Made by a program: the position numbers and the translations under genes. DNA of 64,000 nt from positions 32,001-96,000 of IMG/VR virus record IMGVR_UViG_3300036945_000814; one strand, given 5' to 3'. How positions within the stretch are numbered: the stretch's first letter is position 1; every line of letters starts with the position of its first letter. The notes beneath the pieces were generated by a model. That model was not told the DNA's origin. It saw only the letters and a list, made by a program, of their open reading frames with translations, and searched no databases. This document shows positions 4,812 through 27,839 of the stretch, piece by piece. The DNA is from a virus.

Positions 4812-5912
4812 ATGACGCTCCCCTCCAAAGCCGAAGCCGAAGACTTTTTCTCGCAGCTCCGTCGCTTTTCCAAGCGGCTCGTGAACAAGGCGCTCCCCGG
4901 CACCGCCGACAGCAGCCCGAACATGAAGCCGTACAGCAAGGGCAAGCCCAAGGGCGCGATCCTGCACTACACGGCGTCGGGCAACTGGCAGAGCCCGGTC
5001 AAGTGGTTCAACGACTTCAAGGTGTGCAGCGCCCACGTCGTCGTCGCCCACAACCTCGACCCCATCGCCGCCGGCCTCGCCGATGACCTTCCGCTCGTGA
5101 AGGCGCTCCCCGTCACCGTGATCCAATGCATCGACCCGCGGCAGGCCGCATGGCACGCGACGTGGGCCAACGGCCTCTGCTACGGCATCGAGAACCGAAA
5201 CGCCGGGCTCGTGAAGCGCGACAACCCGAGCGCCCCATGGCGACACTGGCCGCCAGCGAAGGGCAACCCCGACGAATGGACCTCGCTTGCCCCCAAGACC
5301 GGCCAAGGCTACGTCGCGACCTCCGACACCCTCGGCTACGAGCCCTACAGCAAGGCGCAGCTCGCCGCGAACGTCATCCTGCTCCGCTACGTCGGCGCCC
5401 TCGGCGGCGCCGCCCTTGAGCCCCATTGGGTGCTTCCTCACAGCGCCGTGCAGGGCAACAAGTACGACACCGGCCCGCTCTTTCCGATCCATGAGATCCG
5501 CCGTCTCGCGTGCATCGACACGGCCGCCGATCCCATGACCGCCCTCGAAACCATCGAGCCCGACGAGGCCACGTCCGGCGACGACCTCGACATCCCGCCG
5601 ACGGGTGAGCACCTTGAGCAAGCACCCTTGCAGGAGCGCGAGGCCATCGAAGCCGCCATCGCAGGGCTCGCCGTCGTCGAGGCCCACATCCCGAACAAGC
5701 CGCACGCCTTCGCCCACCTCGTGCGGCCGAGCCTCGACAAGCTCGGGTTCTTCGTCCCCTCACCGCCCGATCCCCGCGTCGTCGACGTGTGGCTGCGTCG
5801 CGCGCTTTGGATCTTTCAGACCGGCATCAAGATCGAAGCGACGTGCGTGCCCGATGACGTCACACGCGCCAAGCTCGCCGAGCGGCTGGCGACGCTTGGC
5901 CTCCCCGCGTGA
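4812..5912 (+). CDS. Endolysin, N-acetylmuramoyl-L-alanine amidase (Amidase_2) with C-terminal peptidoglycan-binding-like domain
   Basis: ILHYTA, SAHVVV, AWHA, YGIEN, PHS...KYDTG zinc-amidase motifs; C-terminal LDKLGF...ALWIFQ...DDVTRAKL. Confidence 0.85.
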   Translation: MTLPSKAEAEDFFSQLRRFSKRLVNKALPGTADSSPNMKPYSKGKPKGAILHYTASGNWQSPVKWFNDFKVCSAHVVVAHNLDPIAAGLADDLPLVKALPVTVIQCIDPRQAAWHATWANGLCYGIENRNAGLVKRDNPSAPWRHWPPAKGNPDEWTSLAPKTGQGYVATSDTLGYEPYSKAQLAANVILLRYVGALGGAALEPHWVLPHSAVQGNKYDTGPLFPIHEIRRLACIDTAADPMTALETIEPDEATSGDDLDIPPTGEHLEQAPLQEREAIEAAIAGLAVVEAHIPNKPHAFAHLVRPSLDKLGFFVPSPPDPRVVDVWLRRALWIFQTGIKIEATCVPDDVTRAKLAERLATLGLPA

Positions 5913-7604: not shown

Positions 7605-10600
7605 ATGAGCCTGATCCTCGACCTCAAGAAAAGCGCCGCCATCCTGAACGCAGGCGGCGAGGGGCAAGAGAAGCGGTGGACGCGCTATCCGGGCGCCGCC
7701 AGCATGTTCAACGCCCGCGACGCCGAGCACCGCGAGACGCAGCGGCTCATGACGCAGATGCCCACGCCGAAGCTCGCCATCAGCGACGGCAACTTCACGA
7801 GCCCCGACGACGTGGTGAAGGGCCTCGGCTTTGGCGCCACCGACGAGACGTTGTGGGCGCACCGCGTGGCCCGCATGGTCGCCCGCGCGCCGAGCGAAAT
7901 GGCGCTGCGCAAGGCTGTCGTCGGCGACCTCCGCGGCGAGGCCCTTGAGCCCCCGCTGCGCGCCGAGCTTGGCCGCCGCATCCTCTCGCTGTACCGGCAG
8001 AGCGCCGGCGGCAAGCCGCTTGAGAAGGGCTTTCCGCCGAAGAAGGGCGCTCCGCCCGCCGGCGGCCGCCCGCCCATGATGGGCGCCCCCGACGAAGACG
8101 AGGGCAACAGCGCCGGCGGCGACGGCGCCGCCGGTCCCGCCCCGATGCCGAAGCCCGCGATGAAGCCGGGCGGCCCGATGGGCAAGCCCGCCTCTCTCGG
8201 CGGCAAGCCCGGCGAGGCCCCCGGCGGCGTCGGCCGCAACCCCGCCGTCGACGCCGCGGAGCTGACCGAGCTGCCCGACGACAAGAGCCTGTTGCAGAAC
8301 AAGATCCATGCGCTGCACGAAGACCTCAAGAGCTGCCAAGGCCCGATCACCGGCAACGCCGCGCTGATCCACATGCACAACGACATCAAGGCGCAGATGC
8401 GCGCCGCCTACCGCGATCCGAACCCCGAGATCGTGAGCGACATCGATCACAAGATCCATCACTTCAAGAAGATGCTCGAAGGCCCGCCCCCGCCCGAGGT
8501 CGACCCCAACGACCCCAACGCGCAGGGCGACCCCGGCGCCGGTGGCTACGGCGACCGTGGCGGCCCGCCCAAGCCCGGAGCGATGGCCGGATCCCCGCCC
8601 TCCGGCCGGCAGCCCGGCAAGCGCCCTCCGCCGCCGCCCATGATGGGCAAGAGCGAGCGCGCCAAGGGCGCCCGAAAAGGAGGGCCACCCCGCCCTTTTG
8701 ACCTTGGCCGCCGCGCGATTGCCGCGGCGGCCTTCGACGACTTCTGCAAGGGCGCCGGACACAAGTACCTGCGGCGCCTGCCGACGGGGAAGGCGAAGCC
8801 GCGCTATCGCTACATCTACAACGCCGCCAAGGCCGTCGACACCAAGGCGCGCCCGAGCGTCGGCGAGAAGATCAAGGTCGATCACAACGGACAGGCCGGT
8901 CACTACGAGGTGAAGCGCGTCATGCGCTCCGGGCAGGTCGAGATCCATCACGACGAGACGGGTCACCGCATGGTGATCCACCGATCCAAGCTGCACGACC
9001 TCGTGCGCGACGTCCACGCACCCGCCAAGCTCGACCGCCAGCTCGAAAACCAACGCCTCGACGAAGCGCACCGCAAGGTCGACATGCTTCCCCGATCCAA
9101 GCAGGGCGTGCTCGACAGTATCAAGGCCGCGAGCGGCATCGACGACCACGACCTCGCACAAGCCGACGCGGCCTACGCCGCGTGGAAGGGCCGCGGCCGC
9201 AAAGGCCCGAAGCCGACGCGCGCTGGCAAGGGCGGCGAGCTTGACTCGTTCTCCGGCGACCTCAAGCGCGGCAAGCACTACTCGTCGCTGCTCGAAGCGT
9301 TCGAGGTCGCCACCAAGGGCGCAAAGACGTGGCGCGACATCGCGCCCGTGATCCAACAGCTCCGCGAGGTGCCGGGATTCGAGAACGCGCACCTTCCCGA
9401 AGACGCCTTGCTGCGGCACGCGATGCAGGACCGGGAGCGCGAAGACGCCCCCGACACGCGCCGCGTGGACCCCGAGACGTATGGATCGACGCTGTCGAAC
9501 ACCGTCGATGACGGCGGCTTTGACTGGACGAGCGGCGAGCAGCACCCGGCCCTGTCCACGCCCTCGCAGCTCAAGGCGGCGAAGAAGCGCGCCGCAGCAG
9601 CGAAGAAGGCCGGCAAGGCCGCCGAGCCCGTCGCCCCGCCGCGCGAGGCCCCCGCCGTCGCCGACGACGAGCCCTACACGCCGTCGGACCCCGACGCCCC
9701 CGGCGCGGACAGTGGCGAGCCCGAGCCCGCCGGCGATGTTTCTTTCGACTTCGGCGCCAGCGCGCCCGACGAGCCCGATGAGTGGGGAACCGATATGTGG
9801 CGATCCGACGTGAACCTTGTCCTCGATCTGCGCAAGGCCGCGGACATTTTCGACGGCGTCTCCAAAGAGGAAGCGCGTGGCCTCGCCCGTGCGCTCAACG
9901 TCGACATGGGGAAGATCGATCTCGCACAGTGGAAGCGGGGCATCGCGCATGAGCGCGAGCACTCCGACCTCACCCGCGACCCCGTCAAGATCGCGCGCAT
10001 CGCTCTCGCCCACCTCAAAGAAGATCCATCGTACTACGTCAAGCTCGGCAAGATGGAGAAGGCCGACGGCGGCACCGTGACGATGAAGGCCCCCAAGGCG
10101 CCCGCGCCGCCAGCGCCAAAGGCCCCCGCTCCCGCCCCCAAGGCCCCGAGCGCGTCTCCCGCTCCCGCCGCCGCCCCCAAGCCCCCGAGCGCCCCCGCGC
10201 CGTCCGCAGGGGCATCCACGGCCGTCGGCCGGGCACCGAAGCCCCCGAGCGCCAGCGCGCCCCCGCCGCCGTCGGCGAAGCCGACGGCGCCCCCGCCGTC
10301 GAGCGCAGCAGCTCCGACCAAGGCCGGCCCGGCCCCGAGCGAGCCCGCGCACGCCAAGTTCCAAGAGCTGCAAGCCAAGCACGCCGAGGCCCTGTCGTCG
10401 CTCCAAAGCGCGCACGCCGCCATGACCGCGCACGCCGAGAAGCACGGCATCGCCATGCCCTCGTCGAGCGCGCCGCCGACGACGTCGAACGCACCGACGG
10501 CGATCTCGGGCAGCGGCCCGCGCGTCGACCACAGCGTCGCCCGCGGTCCAAGCTCGGCAGCGCCCGCCGCCCCGGCGGCGCACGATGACGACGTGTTCGC

Positions 10601-13600
10601 CCCCATCGGTTCCGGCGGAGGTGCCACCGGCGTCGCCCGCAAGACGCCCGCCCCCGGCAAGCCTGCCGCTGGCAGCGACGGCAGCGAGTTCAAGCACCTT
10701 TCCGGCCCCGTCTCCGGCGAGACGCCCGAGGAGTCGGTGCCCAAGGCCGACGGCATCCTCGCCCACGGCGTCGTCGGTCACACGTCGAGCGGCAAGCAGG
10801 TGTCGCTCGGCATGAACACCGACAAGCTCACGCCGCAGGAGGCGCACGAGGCGTCGTTGCTGCACCGTGACGCGCAGGAGCACTTGCTCAACGCGGCACG
10901 GCACACGGGCAACGCCGAGTACAAGACCGCCGCGCGTGCGCACCTCGACGCCGAGTTTTCGCACGCATCGAGCAGCGTGAGCGCGACCGCTCAAGCCACC
11001 GATCCGACTGAGCAGAAGCCGTGGGCCGGTCCCGGCGGAGGCGGGCCGGGCGCGCGCACCGCGGACGAGCACAAGCAGCAGGCGGCGGCCACGGACGCTG
11101 TCGCCGACAAGCACGAGGCGGCCGGAAACACCAAGCTGGCGACGGTGTACCGCACCGCCGCTGACGCATCACGCAAGGCAGCGGCCTCGGCCCCGGCGAA
11201 GCCCGGCGCGGCGCCTGCGGCGCACGATGACGACGTGTTCGCACCGATGGGATCGGCCACGAAGTCTCTGTCGGCGGTGTGGGATCGGTTGTCCGCGTGG
11301 CACCCGTCGCCCATGTGGGCGGGCGAGGACATCGGCATGAGCTTCGGCCACCTTCTGAGCAAGGCGATGGGCGTCGAGCAGGCCGGGCACAAGTACATCA
11401 AGCGCACAGCCAAGGCCGGCGGCGGGTACGACTACGTCTACGCCGACGAGCCCCACAGCAAGGAAACGCTCAAGGGTGCGCCCATCGGGTCGACCTTGAC
11501 GGCGCTGCACAATGGATCGTCGGCGACGTACACGAAGAAGGGCAAGGACGACTGGCACGGCGCCACCGGCGGCCCGATCTCGTCGGGATGGTTCGTGGGC
11601 AAGCCCGGAATGCTCACGCACGGCCCCGCACACCCCGAGCCCGTCCACGCGCCGGCGCCGGCGCCCGTCGCAGCTCCGCCGGCACCGAAGCCCACGGCCT
11701 CGAAGCCTGCCGGCAAGCCCGTGCAGGGCAGCCTGTTTGACATGCTGACGGCGCCCGCCCCGGCGGCCGAGCGCCCCAACAACTTCGAGACGATGCCCGA
11801 CAAGCCGGCGGCGTCACCGATGGCGGAGGCCGTGAAGGAAGCCGAGAAGCAGCCGGCGACGTTCGAGGTGCAGGCCGCTGCGGCCATCGACGACGCGAAC
11901 GCCGCCGACGACCGCGGCGACGAGGCCGCCCACCGCGAAGCAAGCAAGCGCCTCGCCGAGATCCGATCTGCGGCCGCCGAGGCCGAAAAGCCCGCAGCGC
12001 CCGAGCGCGACCGCCCCAACAACTTCGTCACCATGCCGGATCCCGAGCCCGGCGAGGCCAAGCCGAAGGCGCCGTCGGCCGCCGAGAAGACGAAGCGCGA
12101 GAAGTTCGAGGAAGCCAAGGCCAAGGCCGGCGCAGCCTCACCGATGGCCGAAGCGACGAAGGAAGCCACCAAGCAGCCCGCCGACGTGAGCGGCGCGTGG
12201 AAGCTCACCTACGACGCGGAGGCGGAAGACGCGGAAGAGGCCAAGATCAGCGAGCGCCACGCGAAGTTTCTGGAGGACAAGAAGAAGGCCCTCGCCGTCG
12301 CCGAACGCGCTCAAAAGAGCGCGCAGCACAGCATCGACTACGACAAAGAGCACTTCAAGATGAAGCGCGACGGCGTGCCGTGGGCCGCGAAGCCGACGCA
12401 GCTCAAGTCGCTGCAACTGCGCACCGCAGAGCTGGCGCACGCCAAGATGGATCTTGAGTACTCCACGCAGCGTTTTGCAGGCGCCGCCAAAGAGCGAGCG
12501 GAGCAGCGCGCCACCCGCAAGGCCGCCGCGGAGCGCCATGTGCGTGAAGCCCCGGAGCGCACGAAGGTCGCAGCCGCGGCCCGCGAGCGCATCGCCGCCG
12601 AAGAGGCACGCCAGAAGGCGGCCCGGCTCGTGATGACCGAGTCGACGAAGACCTCCCGCCAGCGCGAGCGCGAGACGGGTGAGCACATCGCCGCTTCGGC
12701 AAAGGACCGCTCAGACGAACGTCGCATGATCACGACGGGCGACCTTGGATCGATGACGTTCTCCGACGCGCACCGTCTCGTGAACAAGCGGAACGCGATG
12801 CCGGTCTACGGCGCCGACGAGTTCCAAGCCAAGGGCGCGAGCCCCGGCGCGGCCCACATGGGCCTCGCGCTGGCGAACCTCATCGCGCCGTCGCCGCCCG
12901 AGGACAGTGACGACGCCCGCCGCCGGTACCTTGAGGGCATCCGCCTCGTGCATGGCGTGCTGGACAGCGCGAACACCGTCGCCGACTACGCCGAGGCGCG
13001 CAAAGAGCTTGCGGCCATGCACAGCGGCGACAACGTCCCGAAGACGGAGATCCATTCAGCCGTCAAAAAGACGGCTGACGAAAAGGCGGCTGACGTCAGA
13101 AAATACCAAGCGGACTACCGCGCTTGGCAGTCCTCCCACAGCGGCACTCGCCCCGAGTCGCCGCAGGACTATCACGGCATCACCACCTACCCCGGAAACT
13201 ACATCCGCGAGGTGTTGACGCCCCGTGTGAAGGCGCAAGATCCAGACCTTGAGGTCGGCTACGAGTACGTCGATTCTGGCGGCGCCGGTGAGCGTCTGTC
13301 GTTCTTCACCTATTCCAAGTCGAGGAAAGAGGCGATGCGCAAGACCATCGACGCCCTCGGCAAGAGGTTCGTCGATCATGTGGTCGGCGACGGGAAGGTC
13401 TGGAACGACGCGAAGGCCAAGGCGCAGGAAGCCGAAGACATGGGCCTTGCCGGGTGGGATCACCTCGACAAGACCGACGAGGAAAAGGCACGAGCGCGGG
13501 AAGCCACCAAAGCCGAGAAGGCGAAGCTGGCGGAGAACGAGAGTGGCAGCGGCAAGGAAACCAAGCTCCGCTGGCGCCGGTCGATCTCGAAAAAGCCCGC

Positions 13601-14618
13601 CGTGATCGGCGCCAAGGTCACGATCACAGACTCGGACCCCGAGCGGTTCCGCAAGACCTTCAACTTCCGTGGCGAGCAGCCCGGCGAGGCCATCCCCGAC
13701 GCCGAGCTGAATCACCACCGCAAGTACGCCGAAATGGCGTTCCACGACCTCGCCGACGTGCTCGGCATCGAGCCCCGGCAGGTGTCGATGAACGGTCGGC
13801 TCGCGATGGCGTTTGCCGCGCGCGGCAAGGGCGGAGCGATGGCCCACTATGAGCCGGCGGAAAAGGTCATCAACGTCACCCGGTTCGCAGGTGCCGGTAC
13901 CGTCGCCCACGAGTGGGGGCACTTCATGGACAACATCGTCGCCGAGCTGCACCGAGGTGGGTCCACCAAGAGCGCCGTGTACGCATCCGCGGGTGAGGGC
14001 GAGGGGATGCCGGCGGAGCTTGCCGCGGCCTACGCGAAGTTCAACGCCGCGCTGAAAGAGCCGAACCCCAAGACGATCGAACGCTTGAAGAAGGATCACG
14101 CCGACCTCGACAAAGAGTACGAGGACACGCGGAAAATGCTGAGAGAACACCCCGCGAACACGAGGGCCGACAAGACACCCGAGCAGCGCAAGGCCGACGT
14201 GGACAGCTACAACGTGATCGTCAAGAACCTTGGGCACATTTCCACGCAGCAAAAGCTCATCCAAAACTTCCTGCGCAACCCGACGTCGGACTACATGCAC
14301 GACGCCATCGGCCGCGACGGCGGAAGGCGCGGCAAGTATTGGTCGAACCCGCAGGAGCTTTTCGCCCGCGCCTTTGAGAGTCATGTGCAGCACAAGCTCG
14401 AAAGCCAAGGCCGGCGCAACAGCTACCTCGTCGACGGCGCTGTCGGCCCCGGCAGCCCCTACCCGCAGGACGATGAGCTGTCGAAGATCCACGGCGCGAT
14501 CGGTGGCATCATCACGGCCATTCACGGCGCCAAGCTCTTCGAGAAGGCCCTCAAGGCGCTATCGTCTGTCCCGCTGACGGCGCGGCGGCGCGGCCCCAAG
14601 CTCGTGATCGCCGCTTAG
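7605..14618 (+). CDS. Giant polyvalent head-associated protein (2337 aa): Pro/Ala linkers, two GHKY modules, DUF5661-like domain, C-terminal zincin (HEWGH) plus LPD1-like domain
   Basis: GIAHEREH...IALAHLKEDPSYYVKL (DUF5661-like); LAMAFAARGKGGAMAHYEP...AGTVAHEWGHFMD and YWSNPQELFARAFE (LPD1-associated metallopeptidase fold); lies between terL and portal. Confidence 0.85.
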   Translation: MSLILDLKKSAAILNAGGEGQEKRWTRYPGAASMFNARDAEHRETQRLMTQMPTPKLAISDGNFTSPDDVVKGLGFGATDETLWAHRVARMVARAPSEMALRKAVVGDLRGEALEPPLRAELGRRILSLYRQSAGGKPLEKGFPPKKGAPPAGGRPPMMGAPDEDEGNSAGGDGAAGPAPMPKPAMKPGGPMGKPASLGGKPGEAPGGVGRNPAVDAAELTELPDDKSLLQNKIHALHEDLKSCQGPITGNAALIHMHNDIKAQMRAAYRDPNPEIVSDIDHKIHHFKKMLEGPPPPEVDPNDPNAQGDPGAGGYGDRGGPPKPGAMAGSPPSGRQPGKRPPPPPMMGKSERAKGARKGGPPRPFDLGRRAIAAAAFDDFCKGAGHKYLRRLPTGKAKPRYRYIYNAAKAVDTKARPSVGEKIKVDHNGQAGHYEVKRVMRSGQVEIHHDETGHRMVIHRSKLHDLVRDVHAPAKLDRQLENQRLDEAHRKVDMLPRSKQGVLDSIKAASGIDDHDLAQADAAYAAWKGRGRKGPKPTRAGKGGELDSFSGDLKRGKHYSSLLEAFEVATKGAKTWRDIAPVIQQLREVPGFENAHLPEDALLRHAMQDREREDAPDTRRVDPETYGSTLSNTVDDGGFDWTSGEQHPALSTPSQLKAAKKRAAAAKKAGKAAEPVAPPREAPAVADDEPYTPSDPDAPGADSGEPEPAGDVSFDFGASAPDEPDEWGTDMWRSDVNLVLDLRKAADIFDGVSKEEARGLARALNVDMGKIDLAQWKRGIAHEREHSDLTRDPVKIARIALAHLKEDPSYYVKLGKMEKADGGTVTMKAPKAPAPPAPKAPAPAPKAPSASPAPAAAPKPPSAPAPSAGASTAVGRAPKPPSASAPPPPSAKPTAPPPSSAAAPTKAGPAPSEPAHAKFQELQAKHAEALSSLQSAHAAMTAHAEKHGIAMPSSSAPPTTSNAPTAISGSGPRVDHSVARGPSSAAPAAPAAHDDDVFAPIGSGGGATGVARKTPAPGKPAAGSDGSEFKHLSGPVSGETPEESVPKADGILAHGVVGHTSSGKQVSLGMNTDKLTPQEAHEASLLHRDAQEHLLNAARHTGNAEYKTAARAHLDAEFSHASSSVSATAQATDPTEQKPWAGPGGGGPGARTADEHKQQAAATDAVADKHEAAGNTKLATVYRTAADASRKAAASAPAKPGAAPAAHDDDVFAPMGSATKSLSAVWDRLSAWHPSPMWAGEDIGMSFGHLLSKAMGVEQAGHKYIKRTAKAGGGYDYVYADEPHSKETLKGAPIGSTLTALHNGSSATYTKKGKDDWHGATGGPISSGWFVGKPGMLTHGPAHPEPVHAPAPAPVAAPPAPKPTASKPAGKPVQGSLFDMLTAPAPAAERPNNFETMPDKPAASPMAEAVKEAEKQPATFEVQAAAAIDDANAADDRGDEAAHREASKRLAEIRSAAAEAEKPAAPERDRPNNFVTMPDPEPGEAKPKAPSAAEKTKREKFEEAKAKAGAASPMAEATKEATKQPADVSGAWKLTYDAEAEDAEEAKISERHAKFLEDKKKALAVAERAQKSAQHSIDYDKEHFKMKRDGVPWAAKPTQLKSLQLRTAELAHAKMDLEYSTQRFAGAAKERAEQRATRKAAAERHVREAPERTKVAAAARERIAAEEARQKAARLVMTESTKTSRQRERETGEHIAASAKDRSDERRMITTGDLGSMTFSDAHRLVNKRNAMPVYGADEFQAKGASPGAAHMGLALANLIAPSPPEDSDDARRRYLEGIRLVHGVLDSANTVADYAEARKELAAMHSGDNVPKTEIHSAVKKTADEKAADVRKYQADYRAWQSSHSGTRPESPQDYHGITTYPGNYIREVLTPRVKAQDPDLEVGYEYVDSGGAGERLSFFTYSKSRKEAMRKTIDALGKRFVDHVVGDGKVWNDAKAKAQEAEDMGLAGWDHLDKTDEEKARAREATKAEKAKLAENESGSGKETKLRWRRSISKKPAVIGAKVTITDSDPERFRKTFNFRGEQPGEAIPDAELNHHRKYAEMAFHDLADVLGIEPRQVSMNGRLAMAFAARGKGGAMAHYEPAEKVINVTRFAGAGTVAHEWGHFMDNIVAELHRGGSTKSAVYASAGEGEGMPAELAAAYAKFNAALKEPNPKTIERLKKDHADLDKEYEDTRKMLREHPANTRADKTPEQRKADVDSYNVIVKNLGHISTQQKLIQNFLRNPTSDYMHDAIGRDGGRRGKYWSNPQELFARAFESHVQHKLESQGRRNSYLVDGAVGPGSPYPQDDELSKIHGAIGGIITAIHGAKLFEKALKALSSVPLTARRRGPKLVIAA
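10575..11242 (+). repeat. Direct repeat pair encoding AAHDDDVFAP
   Basis: 26 identical nt (gcggcgcacgatgacgacgtgttcgc) at 10575-10600 and 11217-11242. Confidence 0.85.
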
Positions 14619-14629
14619 GCGTCTCACGG

Positions 14630-14657
14630 TTGACACTACGAATGGAGCGCCTACAAT
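14630..14657 (+). promoter_or_regulatory. Near-consensus sigma70 promoter
   Basis: TTGACA (14630-14635)-N16-TACAAT (14652-14657); predicted +1 falls at about the ATG at 14665. Confidence 0.7.
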
Positions 14658-17600
14658 GGTTCGCATGACCACACACGACACCATCGAAGACGCTTCCTTC
14701 GGTTTGCTGCTCAAGGCCGACATCGACGACGCCCTCGACGATCTCGAAAAGGCTTTCGGGTCGGAGCGGGCCGGCCACAAGTACAGCTCCCGCCGACGCA
14801 ACGCGAAAGGCGAGTGGGAGTACGAGTACGCCACCGACAAGACGAAGGCGCACGCGCAAATGGCGTTCACCTTCGCCGCGGCGCACGGCACCCCCGAGCA
14901 GCAGGATCGCGCCCTCGACGTGCTCAAGCGCGTCGAGCCGGACAGGTGGCCCGACCACGTCCACGCGGCCAACGTCGCGCACGAGGCCGCGGTCATCCAC
15001 GCGGCGAACGTCGCCCACGAAGCGGCCGCCCGACCCCTGCCACCATCGCCAGCGCACGAGCACAGCCCCCCGGCCGCCGCCGCGCCCCCTGCCGTCGTGA
15101 GGTTCACGCAGGGCGAGCCCAAGCCCGCCGTCGCCGCGGCCCGTGCGCTGGATGCCTCCCGTGCGAGCCTGATCCGCGCTGGCATCGGCCTGCGCGCCAA
15201 CGCAGAAGAGAAGACCCCTATCGAGGCCGTGGCCGGCCGCGCGGCCGCGCTTCGCAGCTCCGCCTCGTCGCTTTTCAATGAGTCGATCCGCATGGGCATC
15301 GTGAACGACGACCCGCGCACCGCGCGGAAGTTCACGGCCGAGGAACATCGGGCGCTGGCCGCCGCGCACACCGCCCTCTTCGACGAGTTCCGCGAGCTGT
15401 ACGCGCGCTCGATGACGATGCGCATTCGCCCGCCCTCCGGCATGACCGCCGCCGACGCCGATGCGCTCCGCTCCCAGCTCGAACGCGACTTCAAGGGGCA
15501 CGCCAAGCTCGCTCAAGCCCACAACGACGCCGCCAACGCGGCGTCGGGCAAGCCCGCACCCGCGGCCGCTGTGCCGCTCGTGGTCGCGCCTGTGGCGACT
15601 TCGGTCGCTCCGGCGCTGGACGCCGGCCCGGTGCAGCTCATGGACGCCGCCGCCCGCCTCATCGCCGAGCGTGCGAGCGGCGCGCCGCCGGCGTTCAAGG
15701 CCGTCGACAACAACCGCGTCACCATCGGTGGCGTCAAGATGATCGTGCAGGGTGGCTTCCTCGGCGACGCTCCCGCGCACCGCGCGTGGGCGGAGACGGC
15801 CGGCACGTTCTCGGCCGACGCGCAGCACTTCGACGGCGGCCGGGCCTACCGCGTCGCCACCGAGGCGGAGCGTGTGGCCGCCGTGGCGATGATCCCGCGT
15901 CTCCGCGGCTCCGTGAACGTCAACGCGCCCGCACCGGCCCCTGCCCCGGCGCCCGTCGTCGCCGAGCCCGTGCGCCCCGTCGACGACTTCACCGGCGCGT
16001 TCAGGGCGCTGAGTGACGGCAGCGGCGCCGAAGAGATCGTGACGCTCCCGTCGGGATCCAAGATCGGGCTGTCCTACGTCAGCGGACAGGCCAAGGCGCG
16101 CCCCGTCGGAGGCGGCATCGGCCGCAAATGGGATGCGACCGCGACGAAGCGCGCCCTCGCCGCCTTCGAGGCCAAGGTCGCCGCCCTCGGCCCCGCGTGG
16201 CACGCCGCCCACAACGCCATGTACGGCGTCGCCGCCGCCCCGACGCCGCTCGTGGTGGCGCCCGTGGAGACGGCCGCGCCGAAGCGCAAGCGCGCCAACA
16301 ACTTCGAGACGATGCCCGACGGCGACAGGCCCAACAACTTCGACACGATGCCCGAGGAGATCAAAGACCCGTCGCCGCGCGCCACAAAGATCCGAGAAAA
16401 CCGCGAAGCTCGCGAAGCCGAAGCCGCGTTGGAAGCCGGAGCCGAGCGACTGACGGGCGAAGAACGCCACGCCGCCCTGACCCGCATGGGCCAACACTTG
16501 CACGAGGTGCAGGACTTCCGGGCCGGCAAAGACGACACGGGCATGAGCGGCGCCGACATGCTGACGTGGCGCCGATCGACCACCGCACCCCGCAAGGCCA
16601 GCGTCCTCCGCAAGTACCGCCGCCAGCTCGTCGAGAGTTTCGGCGACCTCTACTTCAAGGCCGGGCTGCACGAGAAGGAGCCGATCCCCAAGGGGCACGT
16701 TCCTGCCGTCGGCGAATGGACCGAGCGCGGCGGGCTCGTCATCAAGGCCGACGGCTACCTCGGGACGAAGTTCAACGCATGGAAGAACCTGCTCAAAGAG
16801 CACGGCTTTCGCTGGAATGGATCACGCGGCGACGAAAGCGCCGACGGGATGCACGCAGAGAAGGCGGCGCTGCTCGACATCCCCGGCTTCATCGAGGCGG
16901 CGAACAAGATCGGGATCCATGTCGAGATCCCCGAGAAGCCCGAGGTCGCCCTCGATGCGCCAGCGGCGGCCAACGAGCCCGAGGCGCCCCTGCCCACGCC
17001 CGAGCGGCCGTCGGCGGATCGCCCGACGACCACCGAGGACACGCAGCGGGTCATCAACGCCATTCGCGCCAAGCAGGGCCAGCGCGGCACCGTCGCCGTC
17101 ACCGTGAAGCCCGACGGCAAGTTTGCTTTCTACGCCGTCGACTACCGCAAGACCGAGGTGCCCGGCTCGTTCAACCACATCATGTCGAACAAGAACGGGC
17201 AGATCACCGGGCTCATGGAGGTCGACTCCAAGGACGCTTTCTCGCGCACCACCTACGACGCCGCCCTCGTGACCGAGGCGCTTGGCAAGCTCCGCGACGC
17301 CAACCCGACCTTCCATTTCTACATCGACCCGAAGGCCGCCGCCGCCATCGACAAGGCCGGCGCCGACAAGGCCGCAGCCGAGAAGCCGATCCCAGAAGTC
17401 GAGGCCCTGCTTGCCGACGGCTTCGCGCTCAAGCCCTACCAGAACGCGATGGTGCGGTTCCTCGACAGCAACGACGGCAACGCCATCGTCGGCGACGAAA
17501 TGGGCCTTGGCAAGACGCTGCAATCGCTCGCGTGGGTGGCGAAGAACAACAAGAAGGCCATCGTCGTCGTCCCCAAGGTCGTGCGCCGCACTTGGATCGA

Positions 17601-18987
17601 AGAGGCGCACAAGTTTTTCCCCGGACACTTCAACGCGAAAGAGCTGCGATCCAAGGATCTGCTCACGAAGAAGAAGGCCAAGGCCGGCAAGGCCGACGCC
17701 GGCGGCCTCTCGTTCATCGACGAGCTGATGGCAACCGACAGCCCGATGGATCTCACGGGCAAGAACCTCGTGACGGTCAACTACGAGTCGCTTGAGAAGT
17801 TCATGCCCTACCTCAAGGCCGCCGGGTTCGACACGATCATCGTCGACGAATCGCACCGCGCGAAGAACCCGAAGGCGAAGACGACGCAGGTGATCCAAGC
17901 CATCGCGAAGACGATGAAGCATCGCATCCTCATGTCCGGCACCGCGGTCAAGAACGGCAAGGATGAGCTTTTCACGCAGCTCGAAATGGTGAAGCCCGGC
18001 CTGTGGGGCTCGGCGAAGGAGATCAAGTTTTCCACGCATGGCGCTGCGTGGAACAAGATGCGGGACCACTACCTCGCGCGATCCAAGAAGAACGTGCTCA
18101 AGGATCTCCCCGAGAAGACGACCACGATCAGCCTGCTCTACGCCCCCGGCGCGCCGGACATCGGCAAGATGAAAGAGCCGACGCCGCCACCGGCGAACGC
18201 CACCGCGAAGCAGATTGCGGCCTACGAAAAGGCCGCCGAAGAGTGGGAATCGTGGATGGAAGGGGCCGCCGACGGCGACGGCATCAACGAGGACATCGGC
18301 GATCTCATGGACGGCGGGTCGTCGATCGGCGAGTACAGCCGCGTCCGCGGCCAGCTCGCGCTGGCGAAGGTCGACGGCACCGTCGACATGGTGCAGGAGA
18401 TCCTTGATAGCTCCGACAGCAAGGTGCTCGTGTTCACCGAGTCGGTTGCCGCGGCGAAAGCCATCGCCGAAAAGCTCGGCAGCGAGGCGATCCTGCACTA
18501 CGGGCAGCAGAGCGACGACAAGCGCGAAGACGCGAAGAAGGAGTTTCAGCGCGAGGGATCCCCCAAGCGCGTGTTCGTCTCGACCCGCCCGTCGCTGGCC
18601 GTCGGCGCCACGCTCACGGCCGCCGACAAGGTCGTGTTCAACGACCTCCCGTGGACGGCCGCCGACGTGCGCCAAGCCGAGGACCGCGCGCACCGCGTGG
18701 GCCAGAAGAACGCCGTCAACGTCTACTGGAACGTCGCCGAGGACAACAAGTTCGACGAGAACGTCTCCGCCATCCTCCGCCGGAAGTACGACCTCTCGAA
18801 GAAGATCAACGAGGGGCAGCAGCTTTCGCCCGAAGAAAAGGCGTGGATGAGCAAGCCCGTCACCATGCGCGAAGTCATGGATCGCATCAAGGGCAAGCCC
18901 TCCGGCCCGCCCGAGCCCAAGATCGAAAAGAGCGCCAAGGCGCAGCTCCGCGACATGACCCGCGCGCTGATCAAAGCGGCAAGCTAG
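14656..18987 (+). CDS. Large SNF2-family (SMARCAL1-like) helicase/translocase with long N-terminal cargo region; alternative start 14665
   Basis: LKPYQ, GDEMGLGKT, IIVDESH, LMSGT, KVLVFT, QAEDRAHRVGQ motifs; N-terminal LEKA...GHKY module. Confidence 0.92.
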   Translation: MVRMTTHDTIEDASFGLLLKADIDDALDDLEKAFGSERAGHKYSSRRRNAKGEWEYEYATDKTKAHAQMAFTFAAAHGTPEQQDRALDVLKRVEPDRWPDHVHAANVAHEAAVIHAANVAHEAAARPLPPSPAHEHSPPAAAAPPAVVRFTQGEPKPAVAAARALDASRASLIRAGIGLRANAEEKTPIEAVAGRAAALRSSASSLFNESIRMGIVNDDPRTARKFTAEEHRALAAAHTALFDEFRELYARSMTMRIRPPSGMTAADADALRSQLERDFKGHAKLAQAHNDAANAASGKPAPAAAVPLVVAPVATSVAPALDAGPVQLMDAAARLIAERASGAPPAFKAVDNNRVTIGGVKMIVQGGFLGDAPAHRAWAETAGTFSADAQHFDGGRAYRVATEAERVAAVAMIPRLRGSVNVNAPAPAPAPAPVVAEPVRPVDDFTGAFRALSDGSGAEEIVTLPSGSKIGLSYVSGQAKARPVGGGIGRKWDATATKRALAAFEAKVAALGPAWHAAHNAMYGVAAAPTPLVVAPVETAAPKRKRANNFETMPDGDRPNNFDTMPEEIKDPSPRATKIRENREAREAEAALEAGAERLTGEERHAALTRMGQHLHEVQDFRAGKDDTGMSGADMLTWRRSTTAPRKASVLRKYRRQLVESFGDLYFKAGLHEKEPIPKGHVPAVGEWTERGGLVIKADGYLGTKFNAWKNLLKEHGFRWNGSRGDESADGMHAEKAALLDIPGFIEAANKIGIHVEIPEKPEVALDAPAAANEPEAPLPTPERPSADRPTTTEDTQRVINAIRAKQGQRGTVAVTVKPDGKFAFYAVDYRKTEVPGSFNHIMSNKNGQITGLMEVDSKDAFSRTTYDAALVTEALGKLRDANPTFHFYIDPKAAAAIDKAGADKAAAEKPIPEVEALLADGFALKPYQNAMVRFLDSNDGNAIVGDEMGLGKTLQSLAWVAKNNKKAIVVVPKVVRRTWIEEAHKFFPGHFNAKELRSKDLLTKKKAKAGKADAGGLSFIDELMATDSPMDLTGKNLVTVNYESLEKFMPYLKAAGFDTIIVDESHRAKNPKAKTTQVIQAIAKTMKHRILMSGTAVKNGKDELFTQLEMVKPGLWGSAKEIKFSTHGAAWNKMRDHYLARSKKNVLKDLPEKTTTISLLYAPGAPDIGKMKEPTPPPANATAKQIAAYEKAAEEWESWMEGAADGDGINEDIGDLMDGGSSIGEYSRVRGQLALAKVDGTVDMVQEILDSSDSKVLVFTESVAAAKAIAEKLGSEAILHYGQQSDDKREDAKKEFQREGSPKRVFVSTRPSLAVGATLTAADKVVFNDLPWTAADVRQAEDRAHRVGQKNAVNVYWNVAEDNKFDENVSAILRRKYDLSKKINEGQQLSPEEKAWMSKPVTMREVMDRIKGKPSGPPEPKIEKSAKAQLRDMTRALIKAAS
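14962..15030 (+). repeat. 36-bp-period tandem coding repeat (HAANVAHEAA x2)
   Basis: Copies start at 14962 and 14998. Confidence 0.7.
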
Positions 18988-19017
18988 AGTAGATCCGTTC
19001 ACCCCCGAGGACCGCCC

Positions 19018-21276
19018 ATGAGCACCAACGAAGCCACCGCCCTCTTGAACGACTCGCCGCTGCTCAAGTCGGACGACGGCCACAAGTACGTCAAGCGTGA
19101 GGGGATGCCCGGCGCCTACAAGTACACCTACGCCGACGGCAGCACCGGCCACACCGAGCACAAGCCCACGTTTCAGCTCGGCGCCGCGGCGCATCAACAG
19201 GGCCTCTTCGGCGCCAGCTCCTACGAGAAGAAGCCGGCGAAGCCGAAGGCCCCCGATCCCTTGGCGCACCGGCAGGTCGATATGTTCGCGCCGAAGCCGG
19301 CAGCCGCCACAGCGCCCGCGCCCGCGCCCGCGCCCGAGCCCGCGTCGAAGTTTGACGAGGTCGTTTCAGCCGCCTACACGCAGCGCGCCCGCGAGGCCGG
19401 CGCTGCCTCGGCCCATGCTCGCGAAATGGATCAAGCCGGCTACCACGGAGGCATCAGCAACGCCCACAGGCACGCCGCTTCCGCGCATCGTCGAGCCGGC
19501 GAGGCCGCCATCGCCCTTGGTCACGGCGCCAACACCGCCATGCACGGCAAGCAGATGGCGCACCACGAGAAGCAGGCGGATCTCGACGACGACATCGCCG
19601 CACGCCACGCCGCAACGCGCAGCGGTGCCGCAAAGGAGGCTTCCGACCGCGTCATGGCTATCGCCGACAAGGCGAAGAAGACGACGATGGTCGACACGCC
19701 CGCGGGGCCGCGTGAGTCCACGCCGGGCGGGCTCAAATGGTACGGCGACAAGCCCCACAACCCGGAGGCGCTGGCCGCGGCGCGTGAGGCTTACGGCAGC
19801 GCCAAGTCCGAAGGCCGCAGCGACAAGCTGGCCCACAGCAAGGCGTCGAAGGCCGCGCAGAAGCACCTCGGCGGCGTCACCGGCGCGTGGGATCACGCGA
19901 CGCACGCTCAAGAGCTGCACGATCACGCGAACGGGAACCGGCACGAGATCCCCGGCGGCGCCGACCGCGCAGGGCCACCGCCCCGTGCGCCCGCGAAGAA
20001 GAAGTCCCCGAAGGCGCAGGCCACGCACGCGGCCAAGGTCGCCGACGCCGCTTCGGCGAAAGAAAACGCCGCCGATCACGCGCACGACATGGGATCCAAG
20101 GCGACCACCCTTTCCACGGCCGCCCACCGCCTTTCCAACGCCGGCGGCGACATGGGAAGCGCGAACCACCAAGCCGCGCACGAGGCGCACAAGGCCGCCG
20201 CCGCTGCCAACCGCGAGGCCGCCTCGGCGTTCCAGCAGCCGGGCGCCAGCGTGAGCATTGCAGGCAAGTCGTTCTCGTCGCTGCACGAGGAGCGCGCGAA
20301 GGCGCACGACGAGAAGGCCGGCGATCACTGGCGCGAGGCGGTCAAGGCGCGCTCCGACGAAGAGGGTGAGCCATTCAGCCAAGCCGCGACGCACAAGGTC
20401 GACGGCACGAAGAAGACGGATCTCGACAAGCTGCACGAAGGTGTGGCGGACCTCAAGCCATCCGCCATGCGCAGCGACGGGCACTTCACGCGGGCTGCCG
20501 ACAAGTTCAAGGCGCTGCGCGACCACATCCACGAGAAGGTCGGCGCCCATCCCGCGCACGCGCACGCGAGCAAGGCGTTCACCCTCGCCAACACCGCGGC
20601 GCAGTCGTCCGGCAGCTACGACGTCAAGACGCGCCGCGAGCACATGGAAGGCGCGCAGCAGCACGCGCAGAAAGCGATCGACGCGATGAAGGGCATGGGC
20701 AAGAGCATGGATCACGAGGTCGGAATCTCCCGCTTCCAAGACCGCTCCGCCGGCCGTCCCGCCGCCGGCGGCGTGTACGACGGGCTCGGCTCCGGCATGG
20801 TCGATCCCACCGTGGATCGCCCGCGCTACGCCGGCCGCGCCCCCAATCAGGTGATCGCCGTCGGCGTCGCTGGCGACAGCAACGACCGCAACACCTTCGC
20901 CTACCAGAAGGGCCGGCAGTCCGGCGCCACGTTGGATCTGGCGAAGTCGGCGATGATCGGCGCCGTCAAGGACGGCTACCGGATGCAGCTCATCGCCGTC
21001 GCCGACGCCAACCCCGTTGCCTCGCTCATCATGCGCGGCCGCGTGGAAGGCGAGCGCCCGATGGTGCCCGCCGAGCTGCGCAAGAGTGTGCAGCTTTCCG
21101 CGCCCGACCCCGACGCCGTCGTCGCCTTCGCCGCGGCTGCCCTCAAGGCTGCCAGCGACCGCAACCCGCAGCTTCGGGAAGGGCTCTCGCGCCTCGGCGT
21201 CTCCCGTGCCACCCTGTACGCGACCCTTGAGGCGCTGGCCCTCACACCGGCAGGGATGACCGCCGGCAACCGATAG
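19018..21276 (+). CDS. His/Ala-rich putative internal head protein (752 aa) with N-terminal GHKY module
   Basis: GAGG RBS; LLKS-DDGHKYVKR...YKYTY; helical AHxxAAxAH-type repeats. Confidence 0.8.
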   Translation: MSTNEATALLNDSPLLKSDDGHKYVKREGMPGAYKYTYADGSTGHTEHKPTFQLGAAAHQQGLFGASSYEKKPAKPKAPDPLAHRQVDMFAPKPAAATAPAPAPAPEPASKFDEVVSAAYTQRAREAGAASAHAREMDQAGYHGGISNAHRHAASAHRRAGEAAIALGHGANTAMHGKQMAHHEKQADLDDDIAARHAATRSGAAKEASDRVMAIADKAKKTTMVDTPAGPRESTPGGLKWYGDKPHNPEALAAAREAYGSAKSEGRSDKLAHSKASKAAQKHLGGVTGAWDHATHAQELHDHANGNRHEIPGGADRAGPPPRAPAKKKSPKAQATHAAKVADAASAKENAADHAHDMGSKATTLSTAAHRLSNAGGDMGSANHQAAHEAHKAAAAANREAASAFQQPGASVSIAGKSFSSLHEERAKAHDEKAGDHWREAVKARSDEEGEPFSQAATHKVDGTKKTDLDKLHEGVADLKPSAMRSDGHFTRAADKFKALRDHIHEKVGAHPAHAHASKAFTLANTAAQSSGSYDVKTRREHMEGAQQHAQKAIDAMKGMGKSMDHEVGISRFQDRSAGRPAAGGVYDGLGSGMVDPTVDRPRYAGRAPNQVIAVGVAGDSNDRNTFAYQKGRQSGATLDLAKSAMIGAVKDGYRMQLIAVADANPVASLIMRGRVEGERPMVPAELRKSVQLSAPDPDAVVAFAAAALKAASDRNPQLREGLSRLGVSRATLYATLEALALTPAGMTAGNR

Positions 21277-27621: not shown

Positions 27622-27839
27622 GGTGCCCCGAGTGCAACGCGCAGCTCATGCAAAAGAGCGAGGGCAAGCTCAAGCTGCGCGTGCCGATCCTCGTCTTTTC
27701 CGCCGACGGCGAGTCGTGCGTCACCAACTGCCAGCGATGCAAGGCAGAGATCCCCCTGCCCCTCACGCTCGCAAAAAGCGCGGTGCCCGCGGATGAACCG
27801 CCACCGCGGCTCGTCACCACGCGCTTGACGCGGTCGTGA
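27618..27839 (+). CDS. Small zinc-ribbon protein, Mu Com-like
   Basis: RCPECNAQL...CQRCK, similar in layout to Com-family CxxC...CxxC ribbons; GGGAG RBS and GTGA coupling. Confidence 0.7.
   Translation: MRCPECNAQLMQKSEGKLKLRVPILVFSADGESCVTNCQRCKAEIPLPLTLAKSAVPADEPPPRLVTTRLTRS

What the first reader, a model, noticed from the sequence alone, without database searches (positions are those of the whole stretch)
8742..19131. Shared GHKY leader peptide follows a predicted cleavage site four times in three genes
Seen: FCK|GAGHKYLRRLPTGKAKPRYRYIY (8742-8819); LSK|AMGVEQAGHKYIKRTAKAGGGYDYVY (11352-11441); LEK|AFGSERAGHKYSSRRRNAKGEWEYEY (14743-14829); LLK|SDDGHKYVKREGMPGAYKYTY (19060-19131). Consensus is K|[GAS]-x(1-6)-GHKY-x-x-R-x(5-8)-[YW]-x-Y-x-Y. 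The downstream cargo is unrelated in each case, and apart from the GHKY codons the DNA copies are diverged, so selection appears to act on the peptide. Inference: a basic/aromatic beta-hairpin exposed at the new N-terminus that acts as an address tag for capsid loading, DNA tethering or ejection. It would be a modular tag to which new effectors can be fused. The MuF fusion has a different candidate tag, LAK|AGGPYIGPKGGKWAD (25693-25746).
Basis: partly seen in the sequence, partly recalled or inferred. Interest (0 to 1): 0.92.

Follow-up and report, generated by a model that had tools for sequence, protein, structure and literature searches.

The report
Cut-site plus HKY hairpin cargo cassette
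Three giant genes between the terminase and portal genes of an uncultured 107-kb phage share a short basic/aromatic hairpin (GHKY..R..YxYxY) placed just after a probable head-protease cut site; the unit is uncatalogued, recurs in over a thousand protein clusters from uncultured phages, and probably marks where enzyme cargo carried in the phage head is cut apart and held.

Summary
Exactly four GHKY..R..[YW]xYxY copies lie in the three genes named, against 0.003 expected, and the cargo downstream of each is unrelated.

The motif is a real module missing from Pfam, NCBIfam, PHROGs and the PDB.
- A codon-restricted DNA pattern hit at least 119 IMG/VR stretches.
- A 36-position profile found 1352 protein clusters, with up to 5 copies per protein.
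- The proteins carry typical polyvalent-protein effectors: Zeta toxin, ddrB-ParB, RelA/SpoT, ART, SNF2, LPD1.
- The genes sit beside TerL, portal, protease and MCP homologues.

AlphaFold2 predicts a beta-hairpin. In about a third of copies, including window copy 1, it leads into a Tudor/SH3-like barrel.

The upstream L-x-K|[SAG] is probably the prohead-protease site (about 0.75).
- It is enriched 7-fold in 11 scaffold proteins of this lineage, specifically for K at P1 and S/A/G at P1'.
- It is also enriched in the protease and conserved near the MCP N-terminus.
- It precedes 95% of hairpins, in a stretch AlphaFold2 models as flexible.

What the hairpin binds is not shown. My best guess is packaged DNA, for retention and co-ejection; a procapsid address tag is the main rival.

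Earlier notes of this scan saw the same module in other genomes.

The parts
8742..8759 (+). Copy 1 junction: F-C-K382|G-A-G, putative prohead-protease site and short spacer in the 2337-aa polyvalent gene
   Evidence: Sequence. The K is invariant in alignment A3, yet residues 11-18 of the AF2 model have pLDDT <50.
8760..8819 (+). Copy 1 HKY hairpin (HKYLRRLPTGKAKPRYRYIY, residues 386-405)
   Evidence: Strands E25-28/E36-39 with pLDDT >=90 in model mf15f3036f887.
8820..9083 (+). Tudor/SH3-like barrel plus long helix that continues copy 1 (subfamily A module)
   Evidence: A3 invariants G55 G67 H68 H84 D85 E86 G88. AF2 pLDDT 83. Weak Tudor/Agenet/PWWP matches: Foldseek E 0.013, VIA Z 5-5.8.
11352..11441 (+). 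Copy 2: L-S-K1253|AMGVEQAG + HKY hairpin (residues 1262-1279). It is preceded by a fossil leader, MWAGEDIGMSFGHLLSK, that resembles the N-terminus of gene 2.
   Evidence: The same internal unit occurs in P0005-P0007 and L072.
14695..14829 (+). Gene 2 (SNF2 helicase fusion) N-terminal leader with two L-x-K|A sites (SFGLLLK20|A and DDLEK32|A), followed by the copy 3 HKY hairpin (residues 41-58)
   Evidence: AF2 of the isolated motif gives a hairpin, E19-22/E28-31.
19018..19131 (+). Gene 3 (752 aa, no known family): leader MSTNEATALLNDSPLLK17|SDDG + copy 4 HKY hairpin (residues 22-38)
   Evidence: The leader end PLLK|SDDG matches the scaffold N-terminus PLFK|SDDG.
7605..14618 (+). Polyvalent cargo gene 1 (2337 aa): DUF5661 at residues 758-819, CLCA_X-like at about 2013-2128, LPD1 at 2238-2306. 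It has extra leader-like junctions without HKY at 7611-7634 and 9816-9839.
14656..18987 (+). Cargo gene 2 (1443 aa): SNF2-type helicase in the C-terminal half
19018..21276 (+). Cargo gene 3 (752 aa): no family match. L-x-K-S occurs 4 times against 0.6 expected.
5909..7600 (+). Large terminase, immediately upstream of the three cargo genes
   Evidence: phrog_38, E 1e-58.
21285..23045 (+). Portal protein, immediately downstream of the three cargo genes
   Evidence: PF04860 and phrog_12.
25693..25746 (+). A second kind of post-K module in the InPase/minor-head fusion: LAK|AGGPYIGPKGGKWAD
   Evidence: There are 19 unique copies in the related loci, each after hydrophobic-x-K.
27952..28794 (+). Prohead (head maturation) protease, the presumed enzyme that cuts L-x-K|[SAG]
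   Evidence: phrog_1028, E 3e-41. It has 7 motif copies against 1.5 expected, p=0.0005.
28815..29723 (+). Scaffold protein carrying 11 hydrophobic-x-K-[GAS] sites, 8 of them K-S
   Evidence: 11 sites against 1.4 expected, p<0.0005. Replicated in 10 related scaffolds.
29786..31225 (+). Major capsid protein with a conserved N-terminal NLNK|AL site (29867-29881)
   Evidence: phrog_752. L29 and A32 are nearly invariant in A6.

Best explanation
The four copies are instances of a widespread, uncatalogued junction cassette of head-packaged polyvalent cargo proteins.

Each cassette has three parts:
(i) a short leader, or the tail of the preceding module, ending in [DE]-x-L-x-K;
(ii) a cut by the phage's own prohead protease between K and S/A/G;
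(iii) zero to about eight small residues, then an 18-residue basic/aromatic beta-hairpin (HKY-phi-[KR]-R, a G/P/K-rich loop, [WY]-x-Y-x-Y).

The hairpin therefore ends up at the new N-terminus of each mature fragment. In about a third of cases it continues into a Tudor/SH3-like barrel.

The three genes between terL and portal would be loaded into the procapsid as precursors and trimmed there. Gene 1 would be cut into several pieces. Each hairpin-bearing piece would then be held in the head and delivered with the genome.

Shown: the module, its spread, its cargo diversity, its head-module context and the motif statistics. Inferred: the cleavage (about 0.75). More weakly inferred: that the hairpin's ligand is the packaged DNA, tethering the fragment for retention and co-ejection (about 0.4).
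For: Module and spread:
- Four copies against 0.003 expected.
- At least 119 IMG/VR stretches matched a pattern limited to one codon choice, against a rough chance estimate of a few. The same pattern gave only 17 hits in a roughly six-fold larger bacterial collection.
- 1352 clusters at E<=1e-3 with up to 5 copies per protein.
- H, K, Y, R, Y, Y are 96-100% conserved over 129 unique copies.

Cargo: a Pfam tally of 51 hit proteins gives Zeta_toxin 7, ddrB-ParB 5, LPD1 4, RelA_SpoT 4, ART-PolyVal 3, SNF2 3 and MuF only 1.

Context:
- 75 of 119 loci, and 56 of the 76 loci of at least 8 kb, hold a homologue of this phage's TerL, portal, protease, scaffold, MCP or minor-head domain.
- Several relatives keep the TerL-cargo-portal order.

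Cleavage:
- Hydrophobic-x-K-[GAS] occurs 107 times against 15.4 expected in 11 scaffolds.
- P1 is specific for K (6.9x; R 0.8x). P1' is S 14x, A 4.8x, G 3.9x. P3 is L 11x.
- The protease has 7 sites against 1.5 expected.
- An L-x-K|A-L site is conserved near the MCP N-terminus.
- Scaffold sites and HKY-upstream sites share an extended logo: P5 D/E, P3 L.
- 298 of 312 hairpins have the site within 14 residues upstream.
- The invariant K lies in a stretch with pLDDT <50.
- The same scan recovers the known L/I-x-E rule in the T4 core proteins (rule stated in PMC12991175).
- Cultured Bacillus phage SP8 has a related MCP and shows the same scaffold pattern, 10 sites against 1.2 expected.

Hairpin role:
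- Predicted as a hairpin both within its domain and alone.
- Mean net charge +3.9; loop composition G 28%, P 16%, K 15%.
- It recurs at each junction.
- It also occurs in small proteins that are little more than hairpin plus barrel, or two hairpins.
- A second basic/aromatic module occupies the same post-K position.
Against: - No experiment and no cultured carrier. tblastn of three module queries against 50,697 GenBank phage records found nothing, so there is no virion proteome or N-terminal sequence for any HKY protein.
- L-x-K-[SA] repeats in scaffolds could be a capsid-contact motif rather than cut sites.
- Overall site density in genes 1 and 2 is at expectation (11 vs 10.1 and 7 vs 7.0), so only particular sites would be used.
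- Three of the 11 MCPs have N instead of K at the N-terminal site.
- DNA binding rests only on charge, composition and a weak fold resemblance (Z 5-5.8, within the range of common arrangements).
- Two junctions in gene 1 lack the hairpin, so it is not needed by every fragment.
- The module could be one of the LPD1-40 domains of Iyer et al. 2017 that never reached Pfam. Their supplement was not available.
Confidence: 0.55

Rival explanations
1. The hairpin itself is the procapsid address tag. It docks on the scaffold, the inner face of the capsid protein, the portal or the minor-head protein during assembly, and the cut merely frees the cargo afterwards.
For: - It is the only strongly conserved element shared by otherwise unrelated cargo.
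- Only 1 of 51 carriers has a MuF domain, which could load it by the known route.
- The leaders are short and variable, 9-70 residues.
- One protein (P0095) starts directly with the hairpin and has no leader.
- N-terminal capsid-targeting signals are established in T4 and for P1 DarB (PMC9024508).
Against: - In T4 the signal lies before the cut and is removed. Here the conserved piece lies after it.
- One tag per polyprotein would suffice for loading, yet proteins carry up to five.
- Small proteins made of little but hairpins exist.
Confidence: 0.3
2. L-x-K-[SAG] is not a cut site but a scaffold-like helical contact motif. The leader plus hairpin stay uncut and co-assemble with the scaffold or capsid, so the giant proteins remain whole.
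For: - The leaders resemble the scaffold's own repeats: LDDLEK-A against LDDLIK-A and LNDLLK-A.
- There is no experimental cleavage data for this lineage.
- Site density in genes 1 and 2 is not elevated.
Against: - Strict specificity for K at P1 (R not enriched) and for small residues at P1' is typical of a protease site, not of heptad periodicity.
- The motif is also enriched in the protease and conserved about 30 residues from the MCP N-terminus.
- It lies in a predicted flexible stretch before a folded domain.
- The T4 positive control behaves the same way.
- From my own knowledge, HK97 gp5 is cut between Lys103 and Ser104.
Confidence: 0.15
3. The hairpin has no ligand of its own. It is a folding nucleus, domain cap or protease exosite that only ensures clean cutting at the neighbouring site.
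For: - It is always within about 10 residues of the site.
- In a third of cases it forms the first two strands of a larger barrel.
Against: - The 105 scaffold sites analysed are followed by S/A/G and then mostly L/M, not by a hairpin.
- 64% of copies have no detectable barrel behind them.
- Six positions conserved at 96-100% in an 18-residue element suggest a specific partner.
Confidence: 0.1

Closest known systems
Polyvalent proteins of phages and conjugative elements (Iyer, Burroughs, Anand, de Souza, Aravind 2017, PMC5512222)
   Same: Giant multi-domain proteins encoded beside virion genes. They carry LPD1, DUF5661, InPase, SNF2, ddrB-ParB, ART, Zeta-toxin and RelA/SpoT-type domains, and are predicted to be packaged and injected.
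   Different: The main text of that paper describes neither an HKY hairpin nor junction sites for the prohead protease; it proposes autoprocessing by zincin peptidase domains. The module is absent from the Pfam LPD models. I could not check whether it is among the LPDs left out of Pfam.
T4 internal proteins: capsid targeting sequence plus gp21 cleavage at L/I-x-E
   Same: A short N-terminal leader ends in the prohead protease's P3-hydrophobic/P1 motif, which also riddles the scaffold core. The mature cargo is basic and is injected with the DNA (own knowledge). The motif rule is from PMC12991175 and was recovered by my scan.
   Different: P1 is K here, not E. The conserved element lies after the cut and is retained. 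The cassette also works internally, turning fused genes into polyproteins.
P1 DarB N-terminal capsid-targeting signal (PMC9024508)
   Same: A giant methylase/helicase-type anti-restriction protein is sent into the head by its first 30 residues. Gene 2 here is also a large helicase fusion with an N-terminal signal-like region.
   Different: According to that paper the Dar proteins share no consensus among their N-termini. Here one motif is shared by thousands of proteins. P1 MCP is cut at E|S.
HK97 gp5 delta-domain removal by the gp4 protease (own knowledge: cut between Lys103 and Ser104)
   Same: The P1 K / P1' S specificity of a prohead protease acting on scaffold-like sequence.
   Different: HK97 has no packaged effector cargo. 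The protease here has no detectable Pfam or PDB sequence match, so its family assignment rests on PHROG 1028 only.
phiKZ/SPN3US ejection (inner body) proteins processed by the prohead protease (PMC10052503, PMC7411985)
   Same: Many head-internal proteins are cut by the prohead protease during head assembly before ejection into the cell (abstracts). That the cuts fall at a shared short motif (A/S/G-x-E) is from my own knowledge.
   Different: A different motif and phage lineage. No conserved post-cleavage hairpin has been described there.

Membership tests
Polyvalent proteins (Iyer et al. 2017) | A large protein combining two or more effector/LPD-type domains | tested here: met
   Gene 1 has DUF5661, a CLCA_X-like region and LPD1. 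Gene 2 has an SNF2 helicase plus an unknown N-terminal half. Gene 3 has no recognisable domain.
Polyvalent proteins (Iyer et al. 2017) | Encoded by a phage or conjugative element among virion or transfer genes | tested here: met
   The window is an IMG/VR virus record. The genes lie between TerL and portal.
Protease-processed head-internal cargo (T4 CTS type) | The leader ends in the same motif that the prohead protease cuts in the scaffold and capsid protein | tested here: met
   L-x-K-[SAG] is enriched 7x in 11 scaffolds and shares its P5/P3/P1 logo with the HKY-upstream sites. The motif is conserved at the MCP N-terminus. This is computational only.
Protease-processed head-internal cargo (T4 CTS type) | Actual cleavage and presence of the mature fragment in virions | not testable with these tools
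   No cultured carrier was found and there are no proteomic data.
Protease-processed head-internal cargo (T4 CTS type) | The signal is sufficient to load a foreign protein into the head | not testable with these tools
   Needs reporter fusions.
MuF / SPP1 gp7-type portal-associated cargo carriers | Presence of a Phage_Mu_F domain in the cargo protein | tested here: not met
   No MuF match in genes 1-3. Only 1 of 51 HKY proteins has one.
Tudor / SH3-like barrel | A five-stranded barrel superposable on solved members | tested here: inconclusive
   Copy 1 model: Foldseek E 0.013-0.09 over 46-62 columns, VIA Z 5.0-5.8. This is below the level that separates kinship from a common arrangement. Copies 2-4 have no detectable barrel.
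Any curated family covering the hairpin (Pfam, NCBIfam, PHROGs, PDB sequences) | A significant profile or sequence match over the motif | tested here: not met
   No hit over the motif, even at E<=10 on 67-81-aa pieces. The PDB profile search gave E 0.97 at best.
Autoproteolytic junctions (intein, SEA, GPS, NPTH types) | An invariant Ser/Thr/Cys nucleophile at P1' | tested here: not met
   At the position after the K that sits four residues before the His (about half the copies), G 25%, A 25% and S 8% are all found, so there is no fixed nucleophile.

The most novel reading that the evidence does not exclude
The L-x-K|[SAG] + HKY hairpin unit is a portable 'cut here and keep in the head' cassette. 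A large lineage of uncultured phages with SPO1-type head genes would use it to turn any enzyme gene into injected cargo and to fuse or split such genes freely. If the hairpin alone, or with its leader, suffices to load or tether a foreign protein, it would be the first sequence-defined, lineage-wide cargo tag for tailed-phage heads.
Probability: 0.3. Interest if true: 0.8.

Novelty: new variant of a known kind. Interest (0 to 1): 0.62.

Why it matters
How giant anti-defence proteins get into phage heads and out again is known for only a few model phages, and no shared signal has been found.

Here one short, easily recognised cassette marks the N-termini and internal junctions of cargo in more than a thousand protein clusters. 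This has three uses:
- It gives annotators a way to call head-packaged effectors and their mature boundaries.
- It predicts the specificity of a prohead-protease lineage (L-x-K|S/A/G). That can be tested in cultured SPO1-type phages, whose scaffold shows the same pattern.
- It offers a candidate tag for loading proteins into capsids.

It also explains how effector genes are fused into, and split out of, polyproteins.

Tried and rejected
- The search for related loci failed on alignment A1 (no conserved 7-10 column stretch). It found no close relative of gene 3 in viral contigs.
- tblastn of three module queries against the GenBank phage collection gave no match.
- The genome contigs pattern scan gave 17 stretches. 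That is about the number I estimate for chance in a collection of that size. Only about 8 are true copies, all in metagenome-assembled genomes: Planctomycetota, Ignavibacteriota, Gemmatimonas, Lentisphaeria, Sedimentisphaerales, Deltaproteobacteria, Myxococcales and one unclassified.
- Complex prediction of the copy 1 module with MCP plus scaffold returned 'no answer'. It counts neither for nor against binding.
- The ESM Atlas gave only unnamed viral clusters at score 0.76.
- PDB sequence searches for the protease and for the module gave nothing.
- Full-text searches for GHKY, HKYIRR and similar strings found no relevant paper.
- The Iyer et al. supplement listing LPD1-40 is not held.
- Searches for published N-terminal sequencing of SPO1/Twort-type capsid proteins found nothing usable.
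- Rejected readings: a chance or compositional match, an autoproteolytic element (no fixed nucleophile) and a P-loop-like site (no S/T after the K).

Full report
**Setting.** The window is bases 32001-96000 of a 107-kb IMG/VR virus record with 67% G+C, estimated complete. Its head module reads on the + strand as follows:
- large terminase, 5909-7600;
- a 2337-aa gene, 7605-14618;
- a 1443-aa gene, 14656-18987;
- a 752-aa gene, 19018-21276;
- portal, 21285-23045;
- three small genes;
- an 1152-aa InPase fusion, 24163-27621, whose N-terminus weakly matches a minor head protein;
- prohead protease, 27952-28794;
- scaffold, 28815-29723;
- major capsid protein (MCP), 29786-31225.

Gene 1 carries DUF5661, a CLCA_X-like region and LPD1. 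Gene 2 carries an SNF2 helicase. Gene 3 matches nothing. These are polyvalent proteins in the sense of Iyer et al. 2017 (PMC5512222).

The four peptides are exactly as quoted. They are the only matches in six frames, against 0.003 expected. The DNA shares little beyond GGN-CACAAGTAC and the Tyr codons. The four downstream regions are unrelated by BLASTP.

**The motif is a real and widespread module.**
- No Pfam, NCBIfam or PHROG model covers it, even at E<=10 on short pieces.
- A word-indexed profile search with the four copies returned 21 large phage proteins with 1-3 copies each.
I estimate a few by chance.
- The same pattern found only 17 stretches in a roughly six-fold larger set of bacterial genomes. 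About 8 are genuine, and all of those are in metagenome-assembled genomes.
- Over 129 unique copies, H, K, Y, R, Y, Y are 96-100% conserved.
- A 36-position profile of 126 copies found 1352 clusters at E<=1e-3 among 1.84 billion representatives. Of these, 135 are at <=1e-10, with up to five copies per protein and lengths up to 3135 aa.
- None of 50,697 GenBank phage records has it at BLAST sensitivity.
- String searches of the literature found nothing.

**Cargo and context.** Among 51 hit proteins, Pfam finds Zeta_toxin (7), ddrB-ParB (5), LPD1 (4), RelA_SpoT (4), ART-PolyVal (3), SNF2 (3) and DUF5661 (2). It also finds single cases of a carbonic anhydrase, InPase, PBECR2 and MuF. This is the known polyvalent-protein repertoire.

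Of the 119 loci, each about 10 kb:
- 48 hold a homologue of this phage's portal, 24 of its protease, 16 of its MCP and 14 of its TerL;
- 75 hold at least one of these, as do 56 of the 76 loci of at least 8 kb.

In L042, L054, L059, L064, L083 and L111 the HKY genes lie between TerL and portal, as they do here.

**Structure.** About a third of copies (148 of 415 unique), including window copy 1, are followed by a conserved region of about 70 residues. Its invariant positions are G55, G67, H68, H84, D85, E86 and G88.

AlphaFold2 on 34 such sequences gives a confident model, with mean pLDDT 83 and at least 90 over residues 21-110. It shows the HKY hairpin (strands 25-28 and 36-39), a four-stranded barrel and a long helix. 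Fold searches return Tudor, Agenet, PWWP and SH3-like barrels, but only weakly: Foldseek E 0.013, VIA Z 5.0-5.8. I read this as a likeness of fold, not membership.

Window copies 2-4 have no detectable barrel. The isolated 36-residue motif is still predicted as a hairpin, with pLDDT about 88 in the hairpin block.

An invariant residue in a flexible linker points to a linear recognition motif rather than a structural role.

**The upstream K as a protease site.** In this phage, hydrophobic-x-K-[GAS] occurs 11 times in the 302-aa scaffold against 1.4 expected (p<0.0005). It occurs 7 times in the protease against 1.5 expected. The scaffold N-terminus, TEPLFK|SDDG, nearly repeats the gene 3 leader, DSPLLK|SDDG.

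The enrichment replicates in ten scaffold-position genes of HKY-bearing relatives, with 5-15 sites each. Pooled over the 11 scaffolds there are 107 sites against 15.4 expected, with sharp specificity:
- P1 is K at 6.9x; R is 0.8x and every other residue about 1x.
- P1' is S at 14x, A at 4.8x and G at 3.9x.
- P3 is L at 11x.

Scaffold sites and the sites before HKY share D/E at P5 and L at P3. The MCPs of the lineage keep L-x-K-A-L about 30 residues from the start in 8 of 11 cases.

Applied to the T4 core proteins, the same scan puts the known P1 residue E first. The T4 rule, L/I-x-E, is stated in PMC12991175.

The MCP is 32-34% identical to those of SPO1-type Herelleviridae. Cultured Bacillus phage SP8 shows the same picture: 10 sites against 1.2 expected in its scaffold-position gene, 8 against 1.85 in its protease, and ALNK|ALEAG at the MCP N-terminus.

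From my own knowledge, HK97 gp5 is cut between Lys103 and Ser104, so K|S specificity has precedent.

Across the proteins retrieved, 298 of 312 hairpins have the site within 14 residues upstream. Most of the rest have it slightly further away. Two spacings dominate: L-x-K-G-A-G-HKY and L-x-K-[AS]-x-G-G-E-R-[PA]-G-HKY.

I put the cleavage reading at about 0.75. The remaining doubt is that the scaffold repeats are contact motifs instead.

**Modularity.** 77 of 163 proteins carry their first copy within 70 residues of the start. In the viral loci, leaders run from 9 to about 70 residues and often begin M-[RK]-[FY]-phi-I-[PD].

Internal copies keep leader-like sequence. Upstream of window copy 2, MWAGEDIGMSFGHLLSK aligns with the start of gene 2, MTTHDTIEDASFGLLLK. 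The same internal unit is seen in P0005-P0007. Gene 1 therefore looks like a fusion of formerly separate cargo genes.

Gene 1 also has two leader-like junctions without a hairpin: MSLILDLKK|S at its start, and VNLVLDLRK|A just before DUF5661. The hairpin is therefore frequent at junctions but not obligatory.

**What the hairpin does.** This is not shown. The relevant facts are:
- it is retained after the predicted cut;
- it recurs at successive junctions;
- its mean net charge is +3.9 over 18 residues, and its loop is rich in G, P and K;
- it has one aromatic face;
- it is often fused to a Tudor/SH3-like barrel;
- it occurs in small proteins that are little more than leader, hairpin and barrel (P0144, P0153), or two hairpins joined by linkers (P0065, P0083, P0157);
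- a second basic/aromatic Gly/Pro-rich module, GP[YF]IGP[RK]GGKW.D..HT..W, occupies the same post-K position in the InPase fusion and in many relatives.

I favour a docking element that acts after maturation. The most likely ligand is the packaged DNA, which would keep each fragment in the head and let it leave with the genome, as the basic internal proteins of T4 do.

The main rival is that the hairpin is the loading tag itself. That fits the near absence of MuF domains in carriers and the existence of a leaderless carrier. It is less easily squared with multiple copies per protein and with the signal lying after the cut.

A complex prediction of the copy 1 module with MCP and scaffold gave no verdict.

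**Comparison and novelty.** The kind of system is known: head-packaged polyvalent or anti-defence cargo, prohead-protease processing, and N-terminal capsid-targeting signals as in T4 and P1 DarB (PMC9024508). The following appear to be new:
- the HKY hairpin module itself;
- its fixed pairing with an L-x-K|[SAG] site;
- its use at internal junctions, which turns fused effectors into polyproteins;
- the inferred K-specific motif of a protease lineage shared with SPO1-type phages.

One caveat is that the module might be one of the LPD domains of Iyer et al. that never reached Pfam; I could not check this.

Earlier notes of this scan recorded the same HKY module after putative cut sites in other genomes. 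I reached my reading before seeing them and tested it independently here.

Noticed in passing
window 25693-25746 (InPase fusion residues 511-528); also L018, L019, L027, L044, L050, L053, L059, L060, L073, L092, L095, L097, L112, L135, L136: A second recurrent post-K module, hydrophobic-x-K|[AS]-G-G-P-[YF]-I-G-P-[RK]-G-G-K-W-x-D-x-x-H-T-x-x-W. There are 19 unique copies in the loci and 15 in the retrieved proteins. It sits in the same position relative to the putative cut site as the HKY hairpin.
   Followed up: partly
window 11772-11801, 12012-12041 (gene 1) and 16291-16320, 16327-16356 (gene 2): The short linear motif R[PA]NNFxTMP[DE] occurs twice in each of two otherwise unrelated giant genes, inside low-complexity linkers. 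Its function is unknown.
   Followed up: partly
window 28815-29723; L007, L012, L017, L019, L024, L049, L055, L063, L094, L115 scaffold-position genes; L142:5189-5932 (Bacillus phage SP8): Scaffold proteins of this head lineage, including a cultured SPO1-type phage, carry many [DE]-x-L-x-K-[SAG] sites (107 against 15 expected in 11 proteins). This predicts the cleavage rule of their prohead protease.
   Followed up: yes
window 29786-31225: The capsid protein of this 67% G+C uncultured phage is 32-34% identical over about 95% of its length to those of SPO1/Twort-type Herelleviridae of Firmicutes. It weakly matches Pfam SU10_MCP.
   Followed up: partly
window 7611-7634 and 9816-9839: Two leader-like junctions in gene 1 (LILDLKK|S and LVLDLRK|A) have no HKY hairpin after them. 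The second lies directly before DUF5661, which suggests further cut points.
   Followed up: partly
window 27618-27839: A 73-aa gene between the InPase fusion and the protease has two CxxC pairs (zinc-ribbon-like) and two L-x-K-S sites (2 against 0.1 expected).
   Followed up: no
proteins P0144, P0153, P0065, P0083, P0157: Small proteins (259-435 aa) consist of little more than leader + HKY hairpin + Tudor-like barrel, or of two hairpins joined by linkers. The module is therefore not only an appendage of enzymes.
   Followed up: partly
L113 (IMG/VR contig): A close relative of this phage: portal 84% identical and InPase fusion 78% identical over its first 505 residues. It has the same SNF2 cargo gene and leader.
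   Followed up: no
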